From a virus (Duplodnaviria > Heunggongvirae > Uroviricota > Caudoviricetes): a stretch of DNA of 64,000 nt. The position numbers were made by a program, and so were the translations under genes. The stretch's first letter is position 1, and every line of letters starts with the position of its first letter. The notes under the pieces were generated by a model. It searched no databases and was not told where the DNA came from. It saw nothing but the letters and a program-made list of their open reading frames with translations. The DNA is taken from IMG/VR virus record IMGVR_UViG_2713896908_000007; one strand, written 5' to 3'. Of the stretch, positions 27,414 through 38,499 are shown in pieces.

Positions 27414-30400
27414 ATGAACAAGCTATCTATGGGGGTGTTTCGCTGTTCAAGCGTCAGCGAAATATTGAAATATATTAGGGCAATAACATCTCACCGAGCG
27501 CCGATTAAATACGGCGTGGAAAAGGTGGAAGGCAAAAGCTATGACCGACTGCGCCGGGAGGCGAATCAGAAGGCGATAGATTTGCTTAATTCGCTGGTGG
27601 ACGGCGCGACACTGACAGATGAACAGCGCCAGATCCTGGCTGGGTACACCGGTGAAGGCGGCATTGGCGGGTCCGTCTCCGAATATTACACACCAAAGCC
27701 GATCGCTGAAGGTGTCTGGGAGATCATGAAGCTCTACGGCGCGGACGTAGGTAACACTCTGGAACCATCGGCGGGAACCGGCGTTTTTAATGAGACAAAA
27801 CCGGTTGGTACGGTGATGACCGCGACTGAGATCAGCAGTGTTTCCGGTCGTATAAACCAGTTGTTACACCCGGAAGACAGCGTACAGATTTCCCCGTTCG
27901 AACAGCTGGCTATAAGCACGCCTAACGATTCATTCGACCATGTTGTGGGTAACGTTCCGTTCGGCGGTCGTGATAACACACGCAACATCGATAAGCCTTA
28001 CGCAGAAGAAACGGACATGGGTTCTTACTTCATGCTCCGCATGCTGGACAAGATAAAGCCAGGCGGATTCATGTGCGTGATTGTGCCGCCGTCCATTGTT
28101 TCAGGTTCAAACATGAAGCGGTTACGCCTGCGCCTATCACGGAAAGCTGAATTTCTTGGTGCCCACCGCTTGCCTACCGGTACTTTTGACGCAAACGGGA
28201 CCAGTACAGTCGTTGATGTGGTGCTGATGCGCAAACATCCGGCAGAGATGGCTGAGAAAATCCCCCAGGTGGATGAAAGCACTCTTGAATCGGCAAATGT
28301 GCTTTGGCCAACGTTTATTTCAGGCAAGTGGTTTGAAAAGGACGGACGCCGGTTTGTTCATGGTGCCCAGGAAAAGGGCTTCCAGGGGCGTATTGAGGTT
28401 CGTGCCGACGGGCAGATTGATAACCAGGCTCTTAAAACGAAGCTGATTCATCGTTTCGAAAGTCGTATCGACTGGTCTTTGCTCGATATGGCTGAACCGT
28501 CACCGACCGCAGATGTTGTTGATGAAGGGGAAATGCGCCTGATTAATGGCGTATGGCAAAAATATGCTGGTGGTCGCTGGATTGAAGCTGATGCTGGTAA
28601 GGAGCTTAAGATTGATGCTGCCAGTTATGGCGCGGATAGCTGGGAGGCTCTTCAGCGTAACCTGACTACAACAGAAGGCCGTCTCGGTATGACATTTACC
28701 CAGATGGCAAATGTCCGCGATAAGTACACCACATCAATCAGCGACGATATGGTGCAGCTGGTGGACTGGATTAACAGCCAGCCTGAAAAATACCGTGAAC
28801 GCTTGTATCGCGGGGCGATGATTGGCCGGATGTTAATTGAATATCAGGACATGAAGGCCGCCGGGCATAGTGCTGAACAAATCGAACAGCAGCGCCTTTC
28901 TCTGGTATCCCGTTTGCAGGCAGAGATTGATCGCTTTGGTAATCCTGGTCGCGGTCCTATAGCGAAATTGTCGGGGAGCGGTGCGCGCGCCTGGTTTGCT
29001 TTCCGTGGTGCGATTAAGCTGGATGGCACTATTTCTGACGAGCTGACAGGAAAGCTGGTTACGCATGATTCCAGCGCCAGTTATGACTCCACCAGCTATC
29101 AGGACACCCTGCGTTATCTCTATAGCGATCTTACCCGCGATCCAATCCAGCTCGATGATTTCCGCCTTGCGTTTACCGGCGAACTGCCAGCCAGTGATGA
29201 AGAGTTGCTTAATTTATTGGCCAGCACCCCTGGTATTGCGGTTTCACCGTATGGCGGGATTGTTCCGTTCGCCCGCGCCACCAGCGGCGACATTAACGAG
29301 ATAGTGGCTCCAAAACAGGAATTTCTTGCCACACTCCCCGACGGTCCAGTAAAGAACAACGTCCTTAATCAGCTGGCAGCGATCGAAGAGAAGCGCATCA
29401 AGACGCCAGCAGAGAATATCCGGTTTAAGCTCAATAGCCGTTGGTTTGACCGTTCCGTCATTCTGGAATTTTTGCAGGAAAACGGCTATCCGGATCTGCG
29501 CTATGTGCAGTCAGTGCAGCTGGAAGGCGACGAAATGGTTTCTGACACCTATCACGGTGGTGATGGTCTGTTCGTCGGGCACCGATACGGTGTCGTCCAG
29601 CGCAAGGATAAAGAAACAGGCGAGATCCGCTACGAGTGGGACCGTAAATCAGGTGAAAACGCGACCGGGTTCCCGGCACAGCTGGAAAAGTATCTCAATG
29701 GTGCGCGTATCGGTGGCAAAGATAGCGCGACGGCGAACGGCTACCGCGAGCAGATGGCACTGCTTGAGGACCAGTTCAATAAGTGGATCAAGACGCACGA
29801 TCGCTACGATGAACTGGTTGCCAAATACAACGATGTGTTCAATAGCAATATCCCGTATGAACACTCTGGCGATCCGCTTGGGTTGAAGGGATTAAGCGGT
29901 AAGCGCCAGCCATTTGATTACCAGAATAGCGAGGTGCGCCGACTGTCCGAAGATGGGCGCGGCATCTTGGGCTTCGGCACCGGGCTGGGTAAAACCACGA
30001 CCGCGCTGGCGCTTGAGGCGTTCAACTATGAGAACGGTCGCTCCACCCGTACTGCTTATGTAGTGCCTAAATCAGTGCTGGAAAACTGGTATTACGAAGC
30101 AAAAGAGTTCCTGAGTGAAGAGGCATTCAGTAACTACCTGTTCGTTGGTCTTGATGTGCTGATGGATGGCGATCAGATTCGCCAGGTGCCGGTGCTCGAC
30201 GAGAACGGTAAACCTGTCCTTGGCGCTGATGGCGCTCCCGTTATGCGCGATGCTCTTAAACTGGCAGATGAAGCCACTATCACAGCAAGGATGAACGCGA
30301 TTCCGCACTCAAATTACCGTGCAGTCGTGTTTACCAAAGAACAATACGCCCGCATTCCGCTACGTGATGACACCGTAGATGAGCATGCACAAGACATGCT

Positions 30401-33188
30401 TTATGACTTCGTTGCTGCCGGACGTGTGGCCAGCGCAATGGATTCCGACTCCCACCGCAAAGAGGCGGCGCGTCGCCGGGTATTGTCGGAGTATTCAGAT
30501 ACCGGTACCGAAAAAGCAGAGAAGTATCCGTACTTTGAGGATATGGGCTTCGACAGCGTGATTGCTGACGAAGGCCACAACTACCGCAATAGCTATAAAA
30601 ATGGTCGCGAAGCGTCACAGCTGGCCTATCTGCCCACCAGCGCGGTGGCGCAATCGGCGCGAGATATGGCAATCAAAAACGCGTACCTGATGAAAAAGAA
30701 TGGCGGGCGCGGGCCGGTTCTCCTGAGTGCAACGCCAGTCGTTAACACCCCGATCGATGCATACAACATGCTTTCTCATGTTCTGCCGAAGGAATACTGG
30801 CAGAAGATGGGGATCTACGGTCCTGATGACTTCGTTAAATTCTTCGGCAAGACCAGGCTGGAAACGGTACAGAAAATCAGCGGTGAAGTTGAAGAAAAAA
30901 TGGCGCTGGTGGGCTTTGAAAACCTTGATGCGCTGCGCGGCATATTCCATCGCTGGACAACGCTTAAAACAGCGGAAGACGTTAAGGATACCGTGGAGAT
31001 CCCGGAGCTGGACGAGCACCAGCAGGATGCACCACTTACTGAAGAACAACTGGCGGCGTATGAAGAATTGCGTCAGCAGGCGGAAGCGGCGGCCAAAGCC
31101 AACAATGGCGTAACGACCTCGGTCAATGAAGACGGCGTGATTGAGCACGAGAAAGCCCGTCCGATCTTCTCAATAATCAGGGATATGGACCGCGTATGTA
31201 CTGACATGGACCTGTACTATCGCCGGATCACCTATCGTTTCCTGCCGGAGTACGCCGATGCGGTGCAGCAGCTGGCGGACAGTTTGCCTAAACAAGCCAC
31301 CAGCGAAGACGACGACAGTGATGATTCAATCACGCAGCAATCGCAATACTCCCTGATAGATAAGGGCGAGTTTATTCAGTTGCAGGTTCCGGAAGCGTTC
31401 GAGCAGGAAGTGAATAAGCGCCTGGCCAGGTTTGGCATTGACGAACAGACCGTAACTCACCCCGTTACGCCCAAATACGCGAAGCTGATTGCCACGCTGA
31501 AGGAGTTTTTCCCGGAAGGTAAGCAAATCATCTTCACCGATGAAAAAACGCAGCACCAGAAGCTCAAGCGCATTATCTGCAATGCTCTTAACCTTGAACC
31601 TTCAAAGGTGGGGATACTGAATGCTCAGACGGTTGCCGAGGCAGGTAAAACCGGTAAGAAACTGAAAGCGGTTAAACCGCCGAAAGAGTTACCGGATGAA
31701 CCAACAGATGCACAGATAGCGAAATACAACGAGCAAATGGCTCTGTATGACGCCTATATCGCGCAGCAAAATGAAATGTCGCTGGGCGGGCTGGAAAAGA
31801 TTGCTGCCGACTTCCAGGAGGGCCGGACTCCGATCATCATCTGCAACAAAAAGGCAGAGGTGGGTATCAACCTGCATCGAGGAACGACTGACATCCATCA
31901 TCTGACGTTGCCATGGACACCAGCCAGTATCGCACAGCGTAACGGTCGCGGTGCCCGAGTTGGCTCCAACCGTGCAAGCGTTCGCGTTCACTACTACTGC
32001 GGCAAGGGTTCTTTCGATGAATACCGACTGAAGACGCTGAAGCGTAAAGCAGGCTGGATCTCCGATATCCTCCGTTCAGATAAGTCAGAAATGGAGAACG
32101 CCGACGCCAACGATATGATCGAAATGCAGATGTATACCGCTAAGGATGATGGCGAACGTCTGGCAATGATGCAGGTTCAAATGGATAAGGCGAAAGCCGC
32201 GCAACGCGCTCGCCAGAAAGAACAGGCTACTATCGACCTTCAGAACTACATCAAGGCGCAGCACGCAGCTGGTGAGGATGTGGAGGTGCTTACCGCTGAA
32301 TTAGAGCGAAGCAAAGCGGAACTTGAAAAGACCACCGCCGACGTCGCCAAATTCAAACAGGCGGTAATGGCCAAAGCAGCTGATAACGCAGACTGGAAAG
32401 CCCGCTGGGGTAGCGTCCATCACACAGACCGTACGTTGTTAGCACAGTATCGCGCGTCGTTGAAAAGCGCCATTCAGCGCAAGGCTAATATCTCTCAAGC
32501 CATCTCCCGCTATGAGAAATTATTGAACCGTACTCAGAAGGCCGCGACGGATATCAAACGCCTGCGCCCGCTGGTGGAGGATGCAATAAATAAAGGCATT
32601 ATGGATGTTGATCCTGACTTGGTTAACCATGCGAGTGAGTTCCTTGTTATCGGCGATCGCTCATGGCGTGTAGGCCAATACTACGATTGTGCCGGTGATA
32701 TCGTTCGCATTAAGTCGCTGGACTTCGACAGCCAGCGCGCAGACGTGGAGATTATCTTTACCTTCAAAGGTACCAAATCGGGTAACTGGGATGTGAAGAC
32801 GCTGGATAAACAGGTTGATGTAACTCCCGATGAAGATGCTGTTATGCAGAAAATCAGTGGTGGCGTCTCCATCGCCGGGATTAACGACATCATTTCCTGT
32901 GACGATTTCTACCGTTTCCAGCAGCGCGGCATGATCAAAATCACTGACTCATACGGCGTTCAGACTACAGAGTCAGGCTATAGCATTGATTTTGTTGGTA
33001 CCTATACGGACCCACTGAAGCATGCGGTTTACCCGGATCGCCGTGACGGCGCGCTGAAGTCGTCAATTGCAAAATGGGTGCTTGGTATGATGTCGGAAGG
33101 GAATAACCGCCAGATCCGTTCGGCAGAAACATTCCTGGTTGAACTGTTTGGCTCCAATTATGGCGATGGGAGATACGCTATCCCCTGA
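27414..33188 (+). CDS. darB: DarB-like antirestriction protein, N6-adenine methyltransferase plus helicase domains (1924 aa)
   Basis: MTase motifs LEPSAGTGVF and VVGNVPFGG; helicase motifs GFGTGLGKTT and VIADEGHNYRN. Confidence 0.8.
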   Translation: MNKLSMGVFRCSSVSEILKYIRAITSHRAPIKYGVEKVEGKSYDRLRREANQKAIDLLNSLVDGATLTDEQRQILAGYTGEGGIGGSVSEYYTPKPIAEGVWEIMKLYGADVGNTLEPSAGTGVFNETKPVGTVMTATEISSVSGRINQLLHPEDSVQISPFEQLAISTPNDSFDHVVGNVPFGGRDNTRNIDKPYAEETDMGSYFMLRMLDKIKPGGFMCVIVPPSIVSGSNMKRLRLRLSRKAEFLGAHRLPTGTFDANGTSTVVDVVLMRKHPAEMAEKIPQVDESTLESANVLWPTFISGKWFEKDGRRFVHGAQEKGFQGRIEVRADGQIDNQALKTKLIHRFESRIDWSLLDMAEPSPTADVVDEGEMRLINGVWQKYAGGRWIEADAGKELKIDAASYGADSWEALQRNLTTTEGRLGMTFTQMANVRDKYTTSISDDMVQLVDWINSQPEKYRERLYRGAMIGRMLIEYQDMKAAGHSAEQIEQQRLSLVSRLQAEIDRFGNPGRGPIAKLSGSGARAWFAFRGAIKLDGTISDELTGKLVTHDSSASYDSTSYQDTLRYLYSDLTRDPIQLDDFRLAFTGELPASDEELLNLLASTPGIAVSPYGGIVPFARATSGDINEIVAPKQEFLATLPDGPVKNNVLNQLAAIEEKRIKTPAENIRFKLNSRWFDRSVILEFLQENGYPDLRYVQSVQLEGDEMVSDTYHGGDGLFVGHRYGVVQRKDKETGEIRYEWDRKSGENATGFPAQLEKYLNGARIGGKDSATANGYREQMALLEDQFNKWIKTHDRYDELVAKYNDVFNSNIPYEHSGDPLGLKGLSGKRQPFDYQNSEVRRLSEDGRGILGFGTGLGKTTTALALEAFNYENGRSTRTAYVVPKSVLENWYYEAKEFLSEEAFSNYLFVGLDVLMDGDQIRQVPVLDENGKPVLGADGAPVMRDALKLADEATITARMNAIPHSNYRAVVFTKEQYARIPLRDDTVDEHAQDMLYDFVAAGRVASAMDSDSHRKEAARRRVLSEYSDTGTEKAEKYPYFEDMGFDSVIADEGHNYRNSYKNGREASQLAYLPTSAVAQSARDMAIKNAYLMKKNGGRGPVLLSATPVVNTPIDAYNMLSHVLPKEYWQKMGIYGPDDFVKFFGKTRLETVQKISGEVEEKMALVGFENLDALRGIFHRWTTLKTAEDVKDTVEIPELDEHQQDAPLTEEQLAAYEELRQQAEAAAKANNGVTTSVNEDGVIEHEKARPIFSIIRDMDRVCTDMDLYYRRITYRFLPEYADAVQQLADSLPKQATSEDDDSDDSITQQSQYSLIDKGEFIQLQVPEAFEQEVNKRLARFGIDEQTVTHPVTPKYAKLIATLKEFFPEGKQIIFTDEKTQHQKLKRIICNALNLEPSKVGILNAQTVAEAGKTGKKLKAVKPPKELPDEPTDAQIAKYNEQMALYDAYIAQQNEMSLGGLEKIAADFQEGRTPIIICNKKAEVGINLHRGTTDIHHLTLPWTPASIAQRNGRGARVGSNRASVRVHYYCGKGSFDEYRLKTLKRKAGWISDILRSDKSEMENADANDMIEMQMYTAKDDGERLAMMQVQMDKAKAAQRARQKEQATIDLQNYIKAQHAAGEDVEVLTAELERSKAELEKTTADVAKFKQAVMAKAADNADWKARWGSVHHTDRTLLAQYRASLKSAIQRKANISQAISRYEKLLNRTQKAATDIKRLRPLVEDAINKGIMDVDPDLVNHASEFLVIGDRSWRVGQYYDCAGDIVRIKSLDFDSQRADVEIIFTFKGTKSGNWDVKTLDKQVDVTPDEDAVMQKISGGVSIAGINDIISCDDFYRFQQRGMIKITDSYGVQTTESGYSIDFVGTYTDPLKHAVYPDRRDGALKSSIAKWVLGMMSEGNNRQIRSAETFLVELFGSNYGDGRYAIP

Positions 33189-34167
33189 AGCAATTCAGGA
33201 GAAAATAGCGGATGCGATCGCCAGAATGCCGGAAAAAACAAACCAGGGGGCTACTCGTAACGGGGATTCTGAACTTGAAGTCACCAATGCCATTTTCGGT
33301 ACCAATGAGTTCCGGGCGTCAGATTATGAGATCACCACAGCACAGTTTGGCACCATTGGCATTTACAGCAATAAAGACGAGATCAAGCAGGCAATGGACG
33401 CAGCAAGTGCGCGCATTGCAGCAGAACGGAAAGCCAATCTGAATCATGCAGTCGCCGCGCTGACTCAATCGTGGGTAACAGCAATCAGGGAGGCCGCCAC
33501 CACAGGAAAAATCACACCGGCAATTGCGGATGTCGTAAACGACGGCTCTAAATTTATGGATGCCTATCAAATGGATGCGGTGCAGTTGCCATCAGCCTAT
33601 GGCCAACTCAGCTATCGCATGACCTACAACCTGGTATCAATGTTTTCCGACCTTGCCATCCTTGGGCTGGTGGACCTTAACGAGGTTACGCCGGAATTGC
33701 TCAGCATGCGCAAGAACCATGTGGAGATATTGCACAGAATTAACACGGTACTTTCCGGGCGCACCGATGAAGAGAAACAGGCAGACGCTGATCGGATAAA
33801 CCTAGCCCTTGGCAACATCACGGAGGAAGAAATTGCCGCCAGAAACGAGAAACAAGAAGAGTTATCATCAATACAGGGTGATGCCACCAGCATAGCTCAG
33901 TCTCTTGGTCTGAATTATCGCGTATCCACCGCCGACCTGAAGATGATGTACGCACCAAAATTCGCCGCTGGCGAGGTATTTGGGCTTCAGGAAGCCTCAG
34001 GCATGAAAGGCGTTCTTTTCCGTGCGAAAGACGCAATCAAGGCGAAATTCGGCGCTCGCTGGCTGCCAGCGAAGGCGAAGAACAGCGATTTCCCGGGTAA
34101 CTGGTGGATTATCGAGACAAAACACAACGTGGCGGACGTTCTGGCCGTCATCCAACAATACGCATAA
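33160..34167 (+). CDS. Hypothetical protein in darB operon (335 aa; start uncertain)
   Basis: First in-frame ATG 33160 overlaps darB 3' end; track ORF starts at TTG 33139. Confidence 0.5.
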   Translation: MAMGDTLSPEAIQEKIADAIARMPEKTNQGATRNGDSELEVTNAIFGTNEFRASDYEITTAQFGTIGIYSNKDEIKQAMDAASARIAAERKANLNHAVAALTQSWVTAIREAATTGKITPAIADVVNDGSKFMDAYQMDAVQLPSAYGQLSYRMTYNLVSMFSDLAILGLVDLNEVTPELLSMRKNHVEILHRINTVLSGRTDEEKQADADRINLALGNITEEEIAARNEKQEELSSIQGDATSIAQSLGLNYRVSTADLKMMYAPKFAAGEVFGLQEASGMKGVLFRAKDAIKAKFGARWLPAKAKNSDFPGNWWIIETKHNVADVLAVIQQYA

Positions 34168-34200
34168 CAGGAGCGCCCGGTTCGCCGGGTGTCGCATAAT

Positions 34201-34641
34201 ATGGCCACACTATCTGATACAATAAAACCGAATAAAACATATCTTGAGGCGGTACTCCGTACAGCGTTGTTAGGAAAGACAGAAGACGAATACGTTGATT
34301 TCTTCCTGTCAGGGCTACGCGGGCGATTACTGAAAAATCCCCGCCTGTACCGCAGCTATGGTCCATACTGGCCGGAAATTAAAAAATTATTACTGGAGCG
34401 CGGTTATGGTAATTTCGGTCGTCTCGTTGACCGTGACGTTCGCAAAATTTACCGTTATGACCGCCCGGCGCTAACACTCATAGCCGCGACGCTCTACAGC
34501 CAGGAGCGTTTTGATAATGGTCAGATATACTCAGCCTGGCATTTACTGCCAGTGCCTGAAGAAGTTGACGACCAGGACTATGAGTTTGAGTCTTACGATT
34601 TGGAAGTTGAAGCCTTGGCACAGGCTGGAGAGAAAACTTGA
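34201..34641 (+). CDS. Ulx-like protein (146 aa)
   Basis: ORF immediately upstream of lxc/bof-like gene; track ORF starts at GTG 34189. Confidence 0.5.
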   Translation: MATLSDTIKPNKTYLEAVLRTALLGKTEDEYVDFFLSGLRGRLLKNPRLYRSYGPYWPEIKKLLLERGYGNFGRLVDRDVRKIYRYDRPALTLIAATLYSQERFDNGQIYSAWHLLPVPEEVDDQDYEFESYDLEVEALAQAGEKT

Positions 34642-34886
34642 AAAAGCGATACTACACAGTAAAGCATGGGACGCTACGAGCATTACAAGAGTTTGCTGAC
34701 AAGCATAACGTTGAGGTGCGCAGGGAAGGGGGAAGTAAAGCTCTGCGCATGTACCGTCCTGACGGAAAATGGCGGACGGTCGTCGATTTCAAAACTAACA
34801 GCGTTCCCCAGGGCGTCCGCGACCGGGCATTCGAAGAATGGGAGCAGATCATCATAGATAATGCATTGCTTCTGAATGCTGATTAA
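34638..34886 (+). CDS. lxc: Lxc/Bof-like C1 co-repressor (82 aa, TTG start)
   Basis: GGAG 7 nt upstream of TTG overlapping upstream stop; size and TTG start agree with what I recall for P1 bof. Confidence 0.5.
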   Translation: MKKRYYTVKHGTLRALQEFADKHNVEVRREGGSKALRMYRPDGKWRTVVDFKTNSVPQGVRDRAFEEWEQIIIDNALLLNAD

Positions 34887-34894
34887 TGGTTTTG

Positions 34895-34930
34895 TTTCCC
34901 GGTATCGTATTATACCGGGAAATATCTTTT
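34895..34930 (+). terminator. Rho-independent terminator (TTTCCCGGTAT..ATACCGGGAAA + T-run)
   Basis: Perfect 11-bp stem 34895..34922 followed by TATCTTTTT. Confidence 0.75.
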
Positions 34931-34934
34931 TATA

Positions 34935-35333
34935 TTAACCCGCGGCTGCAATTAGTGCTGACCCAACCGCCAGTGTGGTGACAAGGCCTATAATGACCAC
35001 TGTCGCTGTTACCCCTCCTGCAACAGCAGCTCCAGTCTTTGTTTTGGATAACTCTTTCTTTTCTAGAGAAATGATTTCACCCATAGGAATAGACTGGTTG
35101 TTAATACCATTGATATATTGTGGGGTAACTTTCGATACTGTCATTTCACCTTCGCTACCTGATTTTAACTTGTATTTAATTAGGTCACCAGCATATATCG
35201 GCGGCTCCGTTAAATAATAGGTACTTCTTTCAAGATTTTTCTGCTGTATGTTAACTCCCTGATAAGACTGACATCCACATAACACAAGCGATAAAATTAG
35301 CGTTGTCAGTAATTTTCTTTTGTTTTTTATCAT
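34935..35333 (-). CDS. Lipoprotein with C-terminal glycine-zipper membrane segment (132 aa)
   Basis: AAGGAG 8 nt upstream of ATG 35333; lipobox-like LSLVLCGC; C-terminus GAAVAGGVTATVVIIGLVTTLAVGSALIAAAG; AT-rich. Confidence 0.65.
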   Translation of the reverse strand: MIKNKRKLLTTLILSLVLCGCQSYQGVNIQQKNLERSTYYLTEPPIYAGDLIKYKLKSGSEGEMTVSKVTPQYINGINNQSIPMGEIISLEKKELSKTKTGAAVAGGVTATVVIIGLVTTLAVGSALIAAAG

Positions 35334-35467
35334 TGCCAGCACTCCTTCTCCTTTTCTTTGTATAGCTAAAACACATTATTTATTCTTGTCAAATAGTTTT
35401 GAGTTTGAGAGTGAGGTTTGCGTGACGACGCTCTAAAAGTTGCAGATAGCGGTAAAGATAATTTTAT

Positions 35468-36109
35468 TTACAATATGTTACCTTTTCCGGTAAGTATGCC
35501 TTGCGGTACTTTACTTTCCCCCATTAGTTGAGTGGCATGAATGATATTAATAAATGACATTAGTTGTGATGAACTCTTATTAACATTTATCTCTCCTGCC
35601 ATTGCCCTAATGTAGTCGGCGCTTGCAACGTTGTTATATTCCGTTGCGAAGCAGCATAACAACGTCAGAACGTGCTCTGTCGTTATTTCGCTCCAGTTGA
35701 TGTTGAAAAATTCATCGCCTTTTTTGTCATGTTCGGAATCGAAGATGCTTTGGTGGAGGATGTATTTGCCGGATTCCTTGCGCGGTAACTTGATCGCTTT
35801 CTGGCGTTCCAATTCCTTGTAAATCTGCATTGCTTCAATCAGTACCGGCCTGCCGTTCATGAAGGGATCGCGCAACCTTACACGCTGGCCAACTCGACCA
35901 GTAATAAAGCTGTTTTCCTCTTCCACCAGCACGATAAAACCCTTTTCCTCTTTTTCTCGCAATTCGCGCAGCAGCTGGAGTTCCATATCGCGGCGGCGTT
36001 CAGGGTAGCTGGTCCGCTCAGCCATTATCAGCTCGTTATTGATCCATGCAGCAGTCATTGACGCCGGTTTGCCGACGTTCATCGAAACAACGCATATTTT
36101 CTTATCCAT
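35468..36109 (-). CDS. Hypothetical protein (213 aa)
   Basis: ATG 36109 with AGGGGG upstream; starts MDKKICVVSMNVGKPA; track ORF extends upstream without support. Confidence 0.55.
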   Translation of the reverse strand: MDKKICVVSMNVGKPASMTAAWINNELIMAERTSYPERRRDMELQLLRELREKEEKGFIVLVEEENSFITGRVGQRVRLRDPFMNGRPVLIEAMQIYKELERQKAIKLPRKESGKYILHQSIFDSEHDKKGDEFFNINWSEITTEHVLTLLCCFATEYNNVASADYIRAMAGEINVNKSSSQLMSFINIIHATQLMGESKVPQGILTGKGNIL

Positions 36110-36298
36110 AGCGCCCCCTACAAAAAAGAAAAGCCACCAGCGGCGGCTTAGCAATACAACTGAAGGTAGCGCCCGGTACTCAGACTGTGCCGTCCATGGA
36201 ATATTTGAAAAGGGATCCATCCGTACCGGGCGTGTGATGATTCTGACTGAAGTCACTTGTCAGTTGTCAATCATTTATTATTAAAAATAATATATTTA

Positions 36299-36859
36299 TT
36301 AGTGCATGACGTTTGCCATCTCGTAAGCGTCAGCCAGCAACTCCATCTCTGACTTGTTCAGCAAGGTGAATTCTTTCTTGCCTCCAACCACACCATCGGC
36401 ATGAACAGGGACCAGCCAGGGGTATTTTGCTCTTACTTCAGCCGGTGCTGCATGCTGGTGGTGCCATCTACAAAGAGGCAATTGCTTTTTATGACAACCC
36501 GGCGCGGTACGACCGGCGATATGGTGCAGAGACACCTCATTAGATATTACTCCATGCATATAGCAGGCAATGCAGGGGAGAGCGCCAAGAGCATTGGCGA
36601 TGCGCCGTTCCTCCGCCGTTGGTGTTCTCCCCTTCAAGCCACGAGATTTTATTTTTACCGCGCTTTTCCGCGTTTTGCTGGCTGGTGGGCGTTCTTTCTG
36701 TTTAGCGATACGGCGGTCGATAGTATCCCGCATTTTCTGATATTGAGATTCTCGCCAGACCGGATCAGCCAACTTCTCCCGTTGCCGAGCGATCGCTCGT
36801 TCTCTGGCTGCCTTCTGCCACTTACGGTGCTGTTCAATTTTTTGTTCGATTGTTTTCAT
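36299..36859 (-). CDS. ref: Ref recombination enhancement HNH endonuclease (186 aa)
   Basis: HNH/zinc motifs CIACYMHG..HH..CHKKQLPLCRWHH; located downstream of cre-cra. Confidence 0.9.
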   Translation of the reverse strand: MKTIEQKIEQHRKWQKAARERAIARQREKLADPVWRESQYQKMRDTIDRRIAKQKERPPASKTRKSAVKIKSRGLKGRTPTAEERRIANALGALPCIACYMHGVISNEVSLHHIAGRTAPGCHKKQLPLCRWHHQHAAPAEVRAKYPWLVPVHADGVVGGKKEFTLLNKSEMELLADAYEMANVMH

Positions 36860-36864
36860 AAGGT

Positions 36865-36890
36865 AAAAAAAAGGCGGCCTTTAGGCCGCC
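36865..36890 (-). terminator. Attenuator-type intrinsic terminator 5 nt upstream of ref start
   Basis: On the minus strand GGCGGCC-uaaa-GGCCGCC followed by eight U, then ACCUU-AUG of ref. Confidence 0.7.
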
Positions 36891-36957
36891 AATGATTTCA
36901 AAGGAGTAGGTAATGGCCATGTGTTCGTAGTTGACTCACGCCACCTCTAAATTATAA

Positions 36958-37105: not shown

Positions 37106-37417
37106 TTATTTCATCATGGAAGCTGTTAACGCTTTGGACCTTGCAGAACTGATTGAGAGGGCTTTGTCAACGTGCCCCAAAAATTCTCCAAACTCAGACA
37201 TCACTTTGGCAAAACCGCGCCGTGCTTCTTCCTCGGTGGCATTCATCACGAAATGTTCAGCACTACGCATACTTTTGACAGGGAACGCAACGGATATTGA
37301 GTCAATATCAGGCATTCTATCGCTCAACTTTACAGTGACAATGACGGCTGGCGACTGAATATTAGTGCTTACAGACAGCAGTACATATTTTCCGTCGATG
37401 TTGAAATCCTTTCTCAT
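37106..37417 (-). CDS. cra: Cra-like protein (103 aa)
   Basis: ORF immediately downstream of cre, preceded by operator-like site. Confidence 0.55.
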   Translation of the reverse strand: MRKDFNIDGKYVLLSVSTNIQSPAVIVTVKLSDRMPDIDSISVAFPVKSMRSAEHFVMNATEEEARRGFAKVMSEFGEFLGHVDKALSISSARSKALTASMMK

Positions 37418-37467: not shown

Positions 37468-38499
37468 CTAATCACCATCTTCCAGTAGGCGCACCATTGC
37501 CCCCGTTTCACTATCCAGGTTACGAATGTAGTTCATGACAATATTTACGTTGGTCCAGCCGCCAGCTTGCATGATCTCCGGTATAGAAACTCCGGCGCGG
37601 GCCATATCTCGCGCGGCACCGACACGGGCACTATGTCCAGACCAGGCCAGGTATCGCTGACCAGAGTCATCTTTTGCCCCGTAAATCAATCGGTGAGTTG
37701 CTTCAAAAATCCCTTCCAGGGCGCGAGTTGATAGCTGGCTGGTGGATGATGGCGCGGCAACACCATTTTTTCTGACGCGGCAAAACAGGTAGTTATTCGG
37801 ATCATCAGCTACACCAGAGACAGAAATCCATCGCTCAACCAGTTTAGTTACCCCCAGGCTAAGTGCCTTCTCTACACCAGCGGTGCTAACCAGCGTTTTC
37901 GTTCTGCCAATATGGATTAACATTCTCCCACCGTCAGTACGTGAGATATCTTTAACCCTGATCCTGGAAATTTCGGCTATACGTAACAGGGTGTTATAAG
38001 CAATCCCCAGAAATGCCAGATTACGTATATCCTGGCAGCGATCGCTATTTTCCATGAGTGAACGAACCTGGTCGAAATCAGTGCGTTCGAACGCCAGTGC
38101 CTGTTTTGCACGTTCACCGGCATCAACGTTTTCTTTTCGGATCCGTCGCATGACCAGTGAAACAGCATTGCTGTCACTTGGTCGTGGCAGACCGGACCGA
38201 CGATGAAGCATATTTAGCTGGCCCAAATGTTGCTGGATAGTTTTCACTGCCAGACCACGCGCCTGAAGATATAGAAGATAATCGCGAACATCTTCAGGTT
38301 CTGCGGGAAACCACTTCCGGTTATTCAACTTGCACCATGCCGCCCACGACCGGCAAACGGACAGAAGCATTTTCCAGGTATGCTCAGAAAACGCCTGGCG
38401 ATCCCTGAACATGTCCATCAGGTTCTTGCGAACCTCATCACTCGTTGCATCGACCGGTAATGCAGGCAAATTTTGGTGTACGGTCAGTAAATTGGACAT
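37468..38499 (-). CDS. cre: Cre tyrosine recombinase (343 aa)
   Basis: Protein begins MSNLLTVHQNLPALPVDATSDEVRKNLMDMFRDRQAFSEHTWKMLLSVCRSWAAWCKLNN and ends ..RLLEDGD; loxP lies ~420 bp upstream. Confidence 0.98.
   Translation of the reverse strand: MSNLLTVHQNLPALPVDATSDEVRKNLMDMFRDRQAFSEHTWKMLLSVCRSWAAWCKLNNRKWFPAEPEDVRDYLLYLQARGLAVKTIQQHLGQLNMLHRRSGLPRPSDSNAVSLVMRRIRKENVDAGERAKQALAFERTDFDQVRSLMENSDRCQDIRNLAFLGIAYNTLLRIAEISRIRVKDISRTDGGRMLIHIGRTKTLVSTAGVEKALSLGVTKLVERWISVSGVADDPNNYLFCRVRKNGVAAPSSTSQLSTRALEGIFEATHRLIYGAKDDSGQRYLAWSGHSARVGAARDMARAGVSIPEIMQAGGWTNVNIVMNYIRNLDSETGAMVRLLEDGD

What the first reader, a model, noticed from the sequence alone, without database searches (positions are those of the whole stretch)
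34935..36109. AT-rich lipoprotein gene and a 213-aa ORF at the position of the P1 res/mod-mat region
Between lxc/bof and ref, where I recall P1 carrying its type III system and mat, there is a 132-aa lipoprotein (lipobox LSLVLCGC, C-terminal glycine-zipper segment) in AT-rich DNA, then a 213-aa ORF of unknown function. Small prophage lipoproteins in such slots often mediate superinfection exclusion or envelope remodelling. The strong terminator at 34895..34930 isolates it from the darB-lxc operon.
Basis: inference. Interest (0 to 1): 0.45.

Follow-up and report, generated by a model that had tools for sequence, protein, structure and literature searches.

The report
Cargo lipoprotein gene beside P1 mat
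In this P1-like plasmid prophage of Escherichia albertii, the "213-aa ORF" is the ordinary backbone gene mat, and the lipoprotein next to it is an uncharacterised single-gene cargo sitting where phage P1 keeps its restriction system; its function is unproven.

Summary

**mat.** The 213-aa ORF (35468-36109, minus strand) is P1 mat. It shows 97.7% nucleotide identity to P1 and 89-91% protein identity. The upstream control region matches P1 at 209 of 211 bases.

**The lipoprotein gene.**
- It lies at 34935-35333 (minus strand, 132 aa) and is real: dN/dS is 0.13 between alleles.
- It sits in a 705-bp, 37% GC cassette that replaces P1's res-mod between the lxc stop codon and about codon 172 of mat.

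**The slot.** It is a cargo hotspot. Among 706 P1-like plasmids it carries type III RM, RelA/SpoT, SIR2, PIN, DUF2971, YaaC, GNAT or nothing. The lipoprotein version occurs in only 24 plasmids, all E. albertii.

**The protein.**
- It belongs to an unannotated family: about 100 clusters, with no Pfam, NCBIfam, PHROG or PADLOC match.
- It has an outer-membrane-type lipobox (Cys21), a confidently predicted Sm/SH3-like small beta-barrel, and a 35-residue Gly/Ala-rich C-terminal membrane helix.
- Relatives sit on IncF and conjugative plasmids, in genomic islands, and in ordinary chromosomal neighbourhoods.

**Function.** Unknown. Envelope-level exclusion is my best guess, from location alone. A unimolecular-spanin role is unlikely.

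The parts
34638..34886 (+). lxc (modulator protein, 82 aa), the last backbone gene on the left. Its stop codon is the left edge of the variable slot.
   Evidence: PHROG 2160 at E = 7.8e-57. Annotated lxc/modulator protein in relatives. In a six-way alignment, homology ends within a base of the stop codon.
34887..35591 (.). The variable cargo cassette (705 bp, 37.3% GC). It contains the hairpin, the lipoprotein gene, a 134-bp spacer and the divergent last ~41 codons of mat. It occupies the position of res-mod in P1.
   Evidence: P1 and relatives match only window 34600-~34890 and 35592-36900. No phage record matches the interior, even with blastn word size 11. 24 E. albertii plasmids match all of it. 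GC content.
34893..34934 (+). Intrinsic terminator for the lxc operon: 13-bp stem, 6-nt loop, then a T-tract. It is part of the cassette.
   Evidence: dG -18.5 kcal/mol, z -3.5; every cargo variant has a different hairpin at this position.
34935..35333 (-). Lipoprotein gene (132 aa plus stop), a member of an unannotated family of small lipoproteins.
   Evidence: dN/dS 0.13. No match in Pfam, PHROGs, NCBIfam or PADLOC.
35271..35333 (-). Signal peptide (residues 1-20) and lipobox L-C-G-C, with the acylated Cys21. Residue +2 is Gln.
   Evidence: Read directly from the sequence. Cys21 is invariant in the family. Residue +2 is T/S/H/Q and never Asp in 83 members.
35049..35270 (-). Periplasmic small beta-barrel (residues 22-95), Sm/SH3-like.
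34938..35045 (-). Conserved K-T junction and C-terminal Gly/Ala-rich hydrophobic helix (residues 97-132), with no charged residue after it.
   Evidence: AlphaFold2 predicts a single helix 97-131, with mean pLDDT 64-84 by 10-residue block. KD19 is 2.42; the family median is 2.36 and 92 of 97 members are at or above 1.6. K99 is invariant and T100 nearly so.
35334..35467 (-). mat-lipoprotein spacer (35.8% GC). It has no terminator and no full sigma-70 consensus, though there is a lone TTGACA at 35386-35391.
   Evidence: The promoter/terminator scan finds nothing in this interval on the minus strand. RNA fold z = +0.9. Sequence.
35468..36109 (-). mat (maturation control protein, 213 aa from ATG 36109). 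P1 and PGAP annotate a 250-aa form starting at ATG 36220.
35468..35591 (-). Variable 3' end of mat (last ~41 codons, 33% GC), the right-hand recombination edge of the slot.
   Evidence: the last ~41 residues differ between all four relatives compared; megablast identity stops at 35592. GC.
36240..36308 (-). P1 control elements upstream of mat, placed by homology: LPmat/Pmat at 36240-36270 and the C1 operator Omat at 36291-36308.
   Evidence: P1 annotation, mapped with an offset of 29591. 209 of 211 bases are identical to P1.
36299..36859 (-). ref (RecA-dependent nuclease, 186 aa), backbone gene.
   Evidence: Pfam PF16786 at E = 3e-51. PHROG 2321.

Best explanation
Two separate things lie in the interval.

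(a) SHOWN. The 213-aa ORF is the conserved P1 backbone gene mat, with its P1 promoter and operator region intact.

(b) SHOWN. The lipoprotein gene is a single-gene cargo cassette. It was acquired by recombination in the lxc|mat slot, the hotspot where P1 itself carries the EcoP1I res-mod genes and where other P1-like phage-plasmids carry one- or two-gene defence candidates.

(c) PREDICTED.
- The product is exported and acylated at Cys21.
- It has no Asp at +2, so it carries an outer-membrane sorting signal by the E. coli rule.
- It folds into a compact Sm/SH3-like periplasmic beta-barrel.
- It ends in a 35-residue Gly/Ala-rich helix that is hydrophobic enough to sit in a membrane.
- It would therefore be a small envelope protein held by two anchors.

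(d) INFERRED, weakest step. In the lysogen or the infected cell it changes the envelope so that incoming phage or foreign DNA is excluded. It would do this by occluding a surface or periplasmic component that the incoming element needs. On this reading it is a non-cytoplasmic occupant of a defence slot.

Expression could come by read-through from the C1-controlled and late mat promoters, since no terminator intervenes, or from an unrecognised promoter in the AT-rich spacer.
For: **(a) mat.**

**(b) Cargo cassette in a hotspot.**
- The breakpoints are the lxc stop codon and about mat codon 172.
- GC content is low.
- The cassette is present in 24 of 706 P1-like plasmids, all E. albertii. It is absent from the 21 phage records and from 5,426 complete E. 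coli genomes.
- Alternative occupants were checked in annotated records: SIR2, PIN, YaaC plus a 169-aa protein, DUF2971, RelA/SpoT, GNAT, nothing (RCS47), and res-mod (P1).
- Four of the seven alternative proteins hit PADLOC defence-candidate models. RelA/SpoT hits PDC-S33 at E = 8e-86.
- A 2025 preprint lists type III RM, CapRel, dGTPase and PrrC as typical P1-like phage-plasmid defences (10.1101/2025.09.12.675607).

**(c) Predicted protein.**
- Lipobox and family statistics.
- AlphaFold2 mean pLDDT 87, barrel 96-98, helix 97-131.
- Sm-like fold matches.
- Purifying selection, with all 6 non-synonymous changes in barrel residues 22-60 and none in the tail.

**(d) Exclusion.**
- Slot context (above).
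- The family is repeatedly carried on mobile elements: an IncF plasmid, Serratia conjugative plasmids, and IS-flanked islands in E. coli and Salmonella.
- No terminator lies between mat and the gene.
Against: - There is no similarity to any characterised exclusion or defence protein. Pfam, PHROGs, PADLOC, BFVD and PDB all gave nothing significant.
- The other occupants of the slot are cytoplasmic enzymes, so the location argument transfers only loosely to a lipoprotein.
- Family members in Yokenella, Rahnella and Erwinia sit in stable chromosomal neighbourhoods of transporter and metabolic genes, with no phage or defence genes nearby. This points to a general envelope role for the family.
- No convincing promoter was found, so it is unknown whether the gene is expressed in the lysogen at all.
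- The lysine-rich stretch lies before the helix and no charge follows it. This runs against the positive-inside rule for an out-to-in membrane span, so the final topology (inner membrane, outer membrane or oligomer) is uncertain.
Confidence: 0.4

Rival explanations
1. Lysogenic-conversion or host-fitness factor unrelated to phages. The lipoprotein alters envelope properties such as stress tolerance, serum or bile resistance, adhesion or host colonisation. It would work in the manner of lambda Bor/Iss or plasmid TraT, and the phage-plasmid merely carries it.
For: - Relatives sit beside adhesin, toxin and envelope-modification genes. Examples: downstream of a 1376-aa AIDA-type autotransporter in E. 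coli; in Salmonella and E. coli islands with a pertussis-like toxin subunit and a fimbrial usher; next to virK-lpxM and a glycosyltransferase on an E. albertii IncF plasmid.
- Chromosomal members lie in housekeeping neighbourhoods.
- The cassette is confined to E. albertii, largely bird isolates. P1-like elements form host-specific clades there.
Against: - No homology to Bor, TraT or any virulence lipoprotein.
- The slot otherwise carries defence-type genes.
- The neighbouring genes differ in every context, so no association is consistent.
Confidence: 0.3
2. Membrane-active effector. The Sm-like barrels assemble into a ring, and the Gly/Ala-zipper helices bundle into a pore or membrane lesion. 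It would act as an abortive-infection or toxin-like protein, triggered or expressed late.
For: - Sm/Hfq-type barrels typically form hexameric or heptameric rings. This is general knowledge of the fold; the fold matches are.
- The tail is rich in small-xxx-small motifs, which favour helix-helix packing.
- The gene lies in a defence slot and may be transcribed from the late mat promoter.
Against: - Oligomerisation was not tested.
- Stable chromosomal single-copy homologues have no adjacent antidote or regulator, which argues against a toxic product.
- Fold similarity is generic: Z no higher than 5.7 and Foldseek E >= 0.12.
Confidence: 0.1
3. Unimolecular spanin (like T1 gp11). The protein is anchored to the outer membrane by its lipid and to the inner membrane by its C-terminal helix, and it fuses or disrupts the membranes at lysis.
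For: - It meets the bare operational definition of a u-spanin: an outer-membrane lipoprotein signal plus a C-terminal transmembrane domain, a beta-rich periplasmic part and no periplasmic cysteine (PMC6139136).
- It is almost the same size as gp11 (132 vs 133 aa).
- It may be transcribed from the late promoter LPmat.
Against: - It is not in a lysis cassette.
- P1 already has predicted spanins, ppfA and mlp (PMC9025707).
- Only the signal peptide aligns with gp11 (hhalign, 28 columns, probability 38%).
- No PHROG spanin family matches the window protein.
- gp11's transmembrane domain is followed by RKHEKKEA, whereas this tail has no charge after it.
- A compact ~75-residue barrel is too short to bridge the periplasm (inference).
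- Homologues are chromosomal genes far from any phage.
- 682 of 706 P1-like plasmids lack the gene.
Confidence: 0.04
4. Passenger with no role for the element. The gene was brought in by the recombination event that removed or replaced res-mod, and it is kept only by linkage.
For: No recognisable promoter. Narrow distribution. The same plasmid has also lost a functional darB through a 14-bp deletion, which suggests some decay.
Against: - dN/dS is 0.13 with pS about 0.16 between alleles. That means long-term purifying selection while the gene resided in this slot.
- The ORF is intact in all 24 plasmids at 96.5-100% identity.
- It has a good Shine-Dalgarno sequence.
Confidence: 0.1

Closest known systems
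P1 Mat (maturation control protein; P1_gp006, YP_006475.1)
   Same: The 213-aa ORF is this gene. It has the same position between ref and the variable slot, 97.7% nucleotide identity to P1 from 35592 on and 89-91% protein identity, and the same upstream Omat/Pmat/LPmat region.
   Different: The last ~41 residues differ, as they do between all the relatives compared. P1 and PGAP annotate a 250-aa form starting 111 nt upstream. RCS47, MH422554 and PHROG 1837 support the 213-aa start.
EcoP1I type III restriction-modification genes res-mod of phage P1, together with the other cargos of the lxc|mat slot
   Same: Same genomic slot, bounded by the lxc stop codon and the 3' end of mat. Each is a compact cassette carrying its own terminator.
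   Different: The lipoprotein is a 132-aa envelope protein, not a cytoplasmic nuclease, NADase or alarmone synthetase. It matches no PADLOC model.
T1 gp11, the prototype unimolecular spanin
   Same: Outer-membrane-type lipobox (LSGC in gp11, LCGC here), beta-rich periplasmic part, C-terminal hydrophobic helix, no periplasmic cysteine, about 130 aa (PMC6139136).
   Different: No homology beyond the signal peptide. Not in a lysis cassette. No basic cytoplasmic tail. A compact Sm-like barrel rather than predicted extended strands. Non-phage chromosomal homologues exist. P1 has ppfA/mlp.
Phage exclusion lipoproteins Llp (T5) and Cor (phi80/N15/T1), and Ltp (Streptococcus phage TP-J34)
   Same: Small phage-encoded lipoproteins that protect the infected cell or lysogen at the envelope. 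This is from my own knowledge; for Llp see also bioRxiv 10.64898/2026.03.26.714494, abstract. They are the functional model for the best explanation.
   Different: Llp and Cor are about 60-80 aa, lack a C-terminal membrane helix and act on FhuA. Ltp has helix-turn-helix-like repeat domains. No sequence or fold match was found.
YgdI/YgdR family lipoproteins (NCBIfam NF033216)
   Same: Small enterobacterial lipoproteins. 8 of 31 family members give weak hits (best E = 0.0056).
   Different: The hits are far below any curated threshold and the window protein itself gives none. By my recollection, YgdI/YgdR proteins are about 75 aa and have no hydrophobic C-terminal helix.
Glycine-zipper outer-membrane lipoproteins (SlyB/Pcp, Rickettsia 17-kDa antigen type)
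   Same: A lipid anchor plus a Gly/Ala-rich membrane-embedded segment with small-xxx-small spacing.
   Different: No Pfam glycine-zipper family matched the window protein. None appears among the 25 listed of the 29 Pfam families hit by any of the 31 members at E <= 1. The hydrophobic segment here is one long C-terminal helix after a beta-barrel, not an N-proximal two-helix hairpin (the SlyB layout is from my recollection).

Membership tests
P1 Mat | High sequence identity to P1 Mat along the whole protein | tested here: met
   89% identity to P1 Mat, one substitution in the first 162 residues. 97.7% nucleotide identity. PHROG 1837 at E = 8e-107 across profile positions 1-211 of 212.
P1 Mat | Synteny (downstream of ref, same strand) and the P1 upstream control region (Omat, Pmat/LPmat) | tested here: met
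   Gene order. 209 of 211 bases identical to P1 over the region carrying the annotated elements.
Bacterial lipoprotein (PROSITE PS51257-type signal) | Basic n-region, uncharged h-region, lipobox [LVI..][..][AGS]C with Cys within the first ~35 residues | tested here: met
   MIKNKRKLLTTLILSLVL-CG-C21. Cys invariant in the family. At least 83 of 97 members fit a lipobox pattern.
Bacterial lipoprotein (PROSITE PS51257-type signal) | Actual acylation and LspA cleavage | not testable with these tools
   Needs globomycin sensitivity, palmitate labelling or mass spectrometry.
Unimolecular spanin (T1 gp11 type) | Outer-membrane lipoprotein signal plus a C-terminal transmembrane domain in one polypeptide | tested here: met
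   Lipobox with Gln at +2. C-terminal helix 97-131 with KD19 2.42. Definition taken from PMC6139136.
Unimolecular spanin (T1 gp11 type) | Encoded in or next to the lysis cassette (holin/endolysin) | tested here: not met
   Neighbours are lxc and mat. The P1 spanin candidates are ppfA and mlp, elsewhere in the genome.
Unimolecular spanin (T1 gp11 type) | Homology to a known u-spanin family | tested here: not met
   hhalign against gp11 aligns only the signal peptide (28 columns, probability 38%). No PHROG spanin hit for the window protein. Only the T1 gp11 family and the PHROG models were compared, not all 13 u-spanin families.
Unimolecular spanin (T1 gp11 type) | Complements a lambda Rz/Rz1 lysis defect | not testable with these tools
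   Requires an experiment.
Known anti-phage defence systems (PADLOC-DB 2.0) | Match to a defence-protein model | tested here: not met
   No families at E <= 1 for the window protein and three relatives. Other cargos of the same slot do match.
YgdI/YgdR lipoproteins (NF033216) | Score above the NCBIfam cut-off | tested here: not met
   The window protein gives no hit. 8 of 31 relatives hit only at E >= 0.0056.
Characterised MGE lipoproteins in Pfam (for example lambda Bor, TraT) and Pfam glycine-zipper families | Pfam match | tested here: not met
   No Pfam families at E <= 0.1 for the window protein. None of these families is among the 25 listed of the 29 Pfam families hit by any of the 31 relatives at E <= 1.
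Sm/SH3-like small beta-barrel fold (fold class, not a family) | Five- or six-stranded small barrel that superposes on Hfq/LSm | tested here: inconclusive

The most novel reading that the evidence does not exclude
The lipoprotein is the first recognised member of a new single-gene exclusion family that acts at the envelope and is carried by mobile elements (P1-like phage-plasmids, IncF and conjugative plasmids, islands). It would be a doubly anchored protein (N-terminal lipid, C-terminal membrane helix) whose Sm-like periplasmic barrel, possibly as a ring, blocks phage DNA entry or a receptor. That would extend the P1 lxc|mat defence hotspot from cytoplasmic enzymes to the envelope.
Probability: 0.2. 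Interest if true: 0.6.

Novelty: new variant of a known kind. Interest (0 to 1): 0.33.

Why it matters
- For annotation, the "unknown" 213-aa ORF is simply mat. This element has swapped P1's restriction system for a different cargo.
- The comparison shows that the lxc|mat junction of P1-like phage-plasmids is a sharply bounded cargo slot. It runs from a stop codon on one side to about codon 172 of mat on the other, and it mostly carries defence candidates.
- That makes unknown occupants, such as this lipoprotein, YaaC plus its 169-aa partner, and GNAT, cheap candidates for functional screening.
- The lipoprotein family has about 100 clusters and no entry in Pfam, NCBIfam, PHROGs or PADLOC. It has a clear, testable architecture and recurs on mobile elements of enterobacteria, including a second copy on an E. 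albertii virulence-type plasmid.
- If it proves to be an exclusion factor, it would be a new type.
- If it is a general envelope protein, it is an ordinary moron and of minor interest.

Tried and rejected
1. **"The 213-aa ORF is a novel gene": rejected.** It is mat.
2. **"The lipoprotein is P1 backbone": rejected**.
3. **Direct homology searches gave no named relative.**
   - Pfam, PHROGs, NCBIfam and PADLOC on the protein and on 31 relatives returned only sub-threshold hits driven by the signal peptide (spanin2_2, YgdI/YgdR, HslJ).
   - tblastn against 50,697 phage records found only chance Streptomyces-phage hits at E about 0.5.
5. **u-spanin idea: tested and considered unlikely**.
6. **Guilt by association across 10 genomic contexts found no recurring partner gene**. 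The source name "Phage-related lipoprotein" given to the Yokenella and Rahnella members is not borne out by their neighbourhoods.
7. **The giant proteins in the profile search are not relatives.**
   - P0008, P0035, P0046, P0048 and P0096 were scanned and are SpaA/DUF11/DUF7507 repeat adhesins. They match only a short strand-turn motif many times over.
   - P0026 has the same hit pattern but was not scanned. I treat all of these as motif-level false positives.
8. **A first attempt to fetch related loci with the 31-sequence alignment failed for lack of a conserved block**. A 5-sequence alignment then worked.
9. **The promoter search in the mat-lipoprotein spacer was negative** apart from a lone TTGACA.
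10. **Lobocka et al. 2004 (PMC523184) is not held**. What Mat does is therefore taken only from the record annotation, "maturation control".
Full report
**What is in the sequence**

The window is a P1-like plasmid prophage. Around the finding the gene order is as follows:

| Gene | Coordinates | Strand |
|---|---|---|
| darB | 27414-33188, continuing in another frame to 34167 | + |
| ulx | 34189-34641 | + |
| lxc | 34638-34886 | + |
| hairpin terminator | 34893-34924 | + |
| lipoprotein ORF | 34935-35333 | - |
| 213-aa ORF | 35468-36109 | - |
| ref | 36299-36859 | - |
| c8 | 37106-37417 | - |
| cre | 37468-38499 | - |

- The stretch 34880-35600 is 100% identical to two Escherichia albertii plasmids, NZ_CP043264.1 and NZ_CP117651.1, and 96.5-98.3% identical to 22 more. 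All 24 are from E. albertii and all are non-mobilizable.
- NZ_CP043264.1 is typed IncY.

**The 213-aa ORF is mat**

- Megablast against 50,697 phage records aligns window 35592-36900 to P1 at 97.7% identity, over the features annotated mat and ref.
- The protein is 89-91% identical to Mat of P1, RCS47 and MH422554, with a single substitution in the first 162 residues.
- PHROG 1837 matches at E = 8e-107.
- The 211 bases upstream differ from P1 at two positions. In P1 this region carries the C1 operator Omat, the sigma-70 promoter Pmat and the late promoter LPmat.
- So this ORF is ordinary backbone.

**The lipoprotein gene is a cargo cassette in a sharply bounded hotspot**

*Boundaries*
- All P1 relatives in the phage collection match the window only up to about 34890 and again from 35592.
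- Nothing in that collection matches the interior, even at blastn word size 11 or by tblastn.
- A six-way alignment shows that homology ends within a base of the lxc stop codon. Each variant then has its own, different GC-rich hairpin.
- On the other side, the last ~41 codons of mat differ in every relative compared.
- The cassette is therefore 34887-35591. It is 705 bp at 37.3% GC, against 47.3% for the window, which places it in the lowest 4.7% of 705-bp windows.

*What other elements carry in the slot*
- Of 706 P1-like plasmid records that match the flanks, only the 24 E. albertii records have this interior.
- The gene is also absent from 5,426 complete E. coli genomes.
- Annotated records show the following occupants:

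| Occupant | Record |
|---|---|
| res-mod | P1 |
| nothing (39 bp) | RCS47 |
| SIR2 protein, 435 aa | NZ_CP043288.1 |
| PIN-domain protein, 316 aa | NZ_CP038378.1 |
| YaaC plus a 169-aa protein | CP119512.1 |
| DUF2971 protein | NZ_CP138405.1 |
| RelA/SpoT protein, 375 aa | NZ_CP048917.1 |
| GNAT acetyltransferase | NZ_CP069714.1 |

- Four of these seven proteins match PADLOC defence-candidate models: PDC-S25/ThsA-like, PDC-S34, PDC-S31, and PDC-S33 at E = 8e-86.
- A 2025 preprint on phage-plasmids reports type III RM, CapRel, dGTPase and PrrC as the usual defences of P1-like elements. It also describes host-specific E. albertii clades (10.1101/2025.09.12.675607).
- I found no paper that describes this junction as a hotspot. 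The search covered only the open-access library.

**The gene is real and under selection**

- Two alleles, the window and IMG/VR locus L010, differ by 15 synonymous and 6 non-synonymous changes. That gives pS 0.157, pN 0.020 and dN/dS 0.13.
- All six amino-acid changes fall in residues 22-60. The linker and tail do not change.

**The protein**

*Family*
- The word-indexed search of 5.8 billion proteins found only four near-identical clusters and one 55%-identical E. coli protein.
- An exhaustive profile search of 1.84 billion representatives found 107 hits below E = 1e-3. About 97 are small proteins of 100-200 aa; the matches that span the profile run from lipobox to C-terminal tail.
- The handful of giant hits are a different matter. 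The five I scanned are repeat adhesins that match a short motif many times, so I discount them all.

*Shared features of the family*
- A lipobox with an invariant cysteine.
- T, S, H or Q at position +2, and never Asp.
- A domain of about 75 residues with a nearly invariant G-D and an invariant Gly.
- A charged S-L-E-K/R-K-E-x-S-x-x-K-T junction.
- A 25-35-residue Gly/Ala/Val-rich tail. Its median best 19-residue hydropathy is 2.36, and 92 of 97 members are at or above 1.6.
- 61 of 97 members have no charged residue after the tail. 68 of 97 carry a net positive charge just before it.

*Structure*
- AlphaFold2 with 31 sequences gives mean pLDDT 87. The small beta-barrel is at 96-98, and residues 97-131 form one continuous helix.
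- The 6-sequence run gave the same barrel.
- No Pfam, NCBIfam, PHROG or PADLOC family matches.

**Where relatives live**

| Relative | Context |
|---|---|
| E. coli ADIK01000069 (55% identity) | Downstream of a 1376-aa AIDA-type autotransporter and a small acidic ORF; IS-flanked |
| Salmonella and E. coli (25-29% identity) | Islands with a pertussis-like toxin subunit, a fimbrial usher and IS elements |
| Second E. albertii paralogue (36% identity) | IncF plasmids, next to virK, lpxM and a glycosyltransferase. By accession series and isolation source (and strain RM10507 in one case) these appear to be the same isolates that carry the P1-like plasmid. |
| Serratia | Conjugative plasmids |
| Erwinia, Yokenella, Rahnella | Stable chromosomal sites among transporter and metabolic genes |

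No partner gene recurs across these contexts. The family is therefore an envelope lipoprotein that mobile elements often pick up. It is not a phage-specific protein.

**How it most likely works**

*Shown*
- The cargo status of the gene and its boundaries.

*Predicted*
- Sec export, then Lgt/LspA/Lnt processing at Cys21.
- An outer-membrane sorting signal by the +2 rule.
- A compact periplasmic barrel.
- A C-terminal helix hydrophobic enough to stay in a membrane.

*Uncertain*
- The lysine-rich flank precedes the helix and nothing charged follows it. Whether the helix stops transfer in the inner membrane, enters the outer membrane or bundles with other copies cannot be decided here.
- A barrel of about 75 residues with short linkers is too small to bridge a normal periplasm (my inference). 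I therefore favour a protein with both anchors in, or close to, one membrane.

*Inferred*
- From the slot context, I rank envelope-level exclusion of incoming phage or DNA first (0.4).
- A phage-unrelated envelope or fitness role is a close second (0.3), because of the virulence-island and chromosomal contexts.
- A pore or abortive-infection effector (0.1), a passenger gene (0.1) and a u-spanin (0.04) follow.

*Expression*
- No terminator or stable structure lies between mat and the gene.
- The spacer has only a lone TTGACA.
- Read-through from the C1-controlled and late mat promoters is therefore possible. That would mean expression during lytic growth rather than in the lysogen. This is untested.

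**The u-spanin resemblance**

- The architecture equals the operational definition of a unimolecular spanin (PMC6139136), and the size matches T1 gp11.
- Against it: only the signal peptides align, the gene is not in a lysis cassette, and P1 has its own predicted spanins ppfA and mlp (PMC9025707).
- Also against it: gp11's basic cytoplasmic tail is missing, and chromosomal homologues exist far from any phage.
- It has the layout of a u-spanin, but I do not file it as one.

**Verdict**

- mat is already known.
- The lipoprotein is an uncharacterised accessory gene in a known kind of place, a phage cargo and defence hotspot. Its architecture differs from that of the characterised phage lipoproteins.
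- Interest is moderate to low unless an exclusion phenotype is demonstrated.

Noticed in passing
window 27414-34167 (deletion at about 33168): darB is split into a 1924-aa ORF and an overlapping 342-aa ORF. The cause is a 14-bp deletion relative to RCS47 and MH422554 (GTAATCGCGTCATAC region). The anti-restriction methyltransferase/helicase DarB is therefore probably inactive in this element. PLSDB lists no CDS there for the identical plasmid, which fits a pseudogene call.
   Followed up: partly
window 36109-36256: The mat start codon is ambiguous. P1 and PGAP annotate 250 aa from ATG 36220. The extra 37 codons run through a terminator-like hairpin plus T-run (36149-36131, minus strand). The hairpin is marginal by folding energy (z = -0.5 against shuffles). 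PHROG 1837 and the RCS47 and MH422554 annotations begin at ATG 36109, which has an AGGGGG Shine-Dalgarno sequence. The hairpin lies between the late promoter LPmat and the likely true start. It could end ref transcription or attenuate mat.
   Followed up: partly
window 35468-35591, compared with L001, L004 and L005: The last ~41 residues of Mat have the same length but a different sequence in every P1 relative compared. They appear to travel with the cargo cassette, so the recombination edge lies inside the mat coding sequence.
   Followed up: partly
window 34887-34934; L004, L005, L023, L024, L027: Each cargo variant has a different GC-rich hairpin immediately after the lxc stop codon. The terminator of the lxc operon is thus supplied by the cassette rather than the backbone.
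   Followed up: yes
L029 (NZ_CP043261.1) 6001-6408: A second, 36%-identical member of the lipoprotein family lies on an E. albertii IncF plasmid, next to virK, lpxM (msbB2-like), a family-4 glycosyltransferase and a polysaccharide deacetylase. By accession series and isolation source, the three plasmids carrying it appear to come from the same isolates that carry a P1-like plasmid with the cassette.
   Followed up: partly
L002 (E. coli ADIK01000069.1) 1236-6223: The closest non-albertii homologue (55% identity) follows a 1376-aa AIDA-type autotransporter (extended signal peptide, an Ala-Ser repeat, C-terminal barrel) and a 96/107-aa acidic ORF. The unit is flanked by IS fragments.
   Followed up: no
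L020-L022 (metagenome contigs), genes at 5032-8422 of L020: An environmental family member sits directly after a 609-aa ToxR/CadC-like regulator (Trans_reg_C plus TPR). Two unknown ORFs (136 and 207 aa) follow it with overlapping or abutting ends, so this may be an operon.
   Followed up: no
L025 (CP119512.1) 955-2504; L028 (NZ_CP069714.1) 979-1587: Three other occupants of the same P1 slot have no PADLOC match: YaaC-family protein, its 169-aa partner, and a GNAT acetyltransferase. They are further uncharacterised candidates from this hotspot.
   Followed up: no
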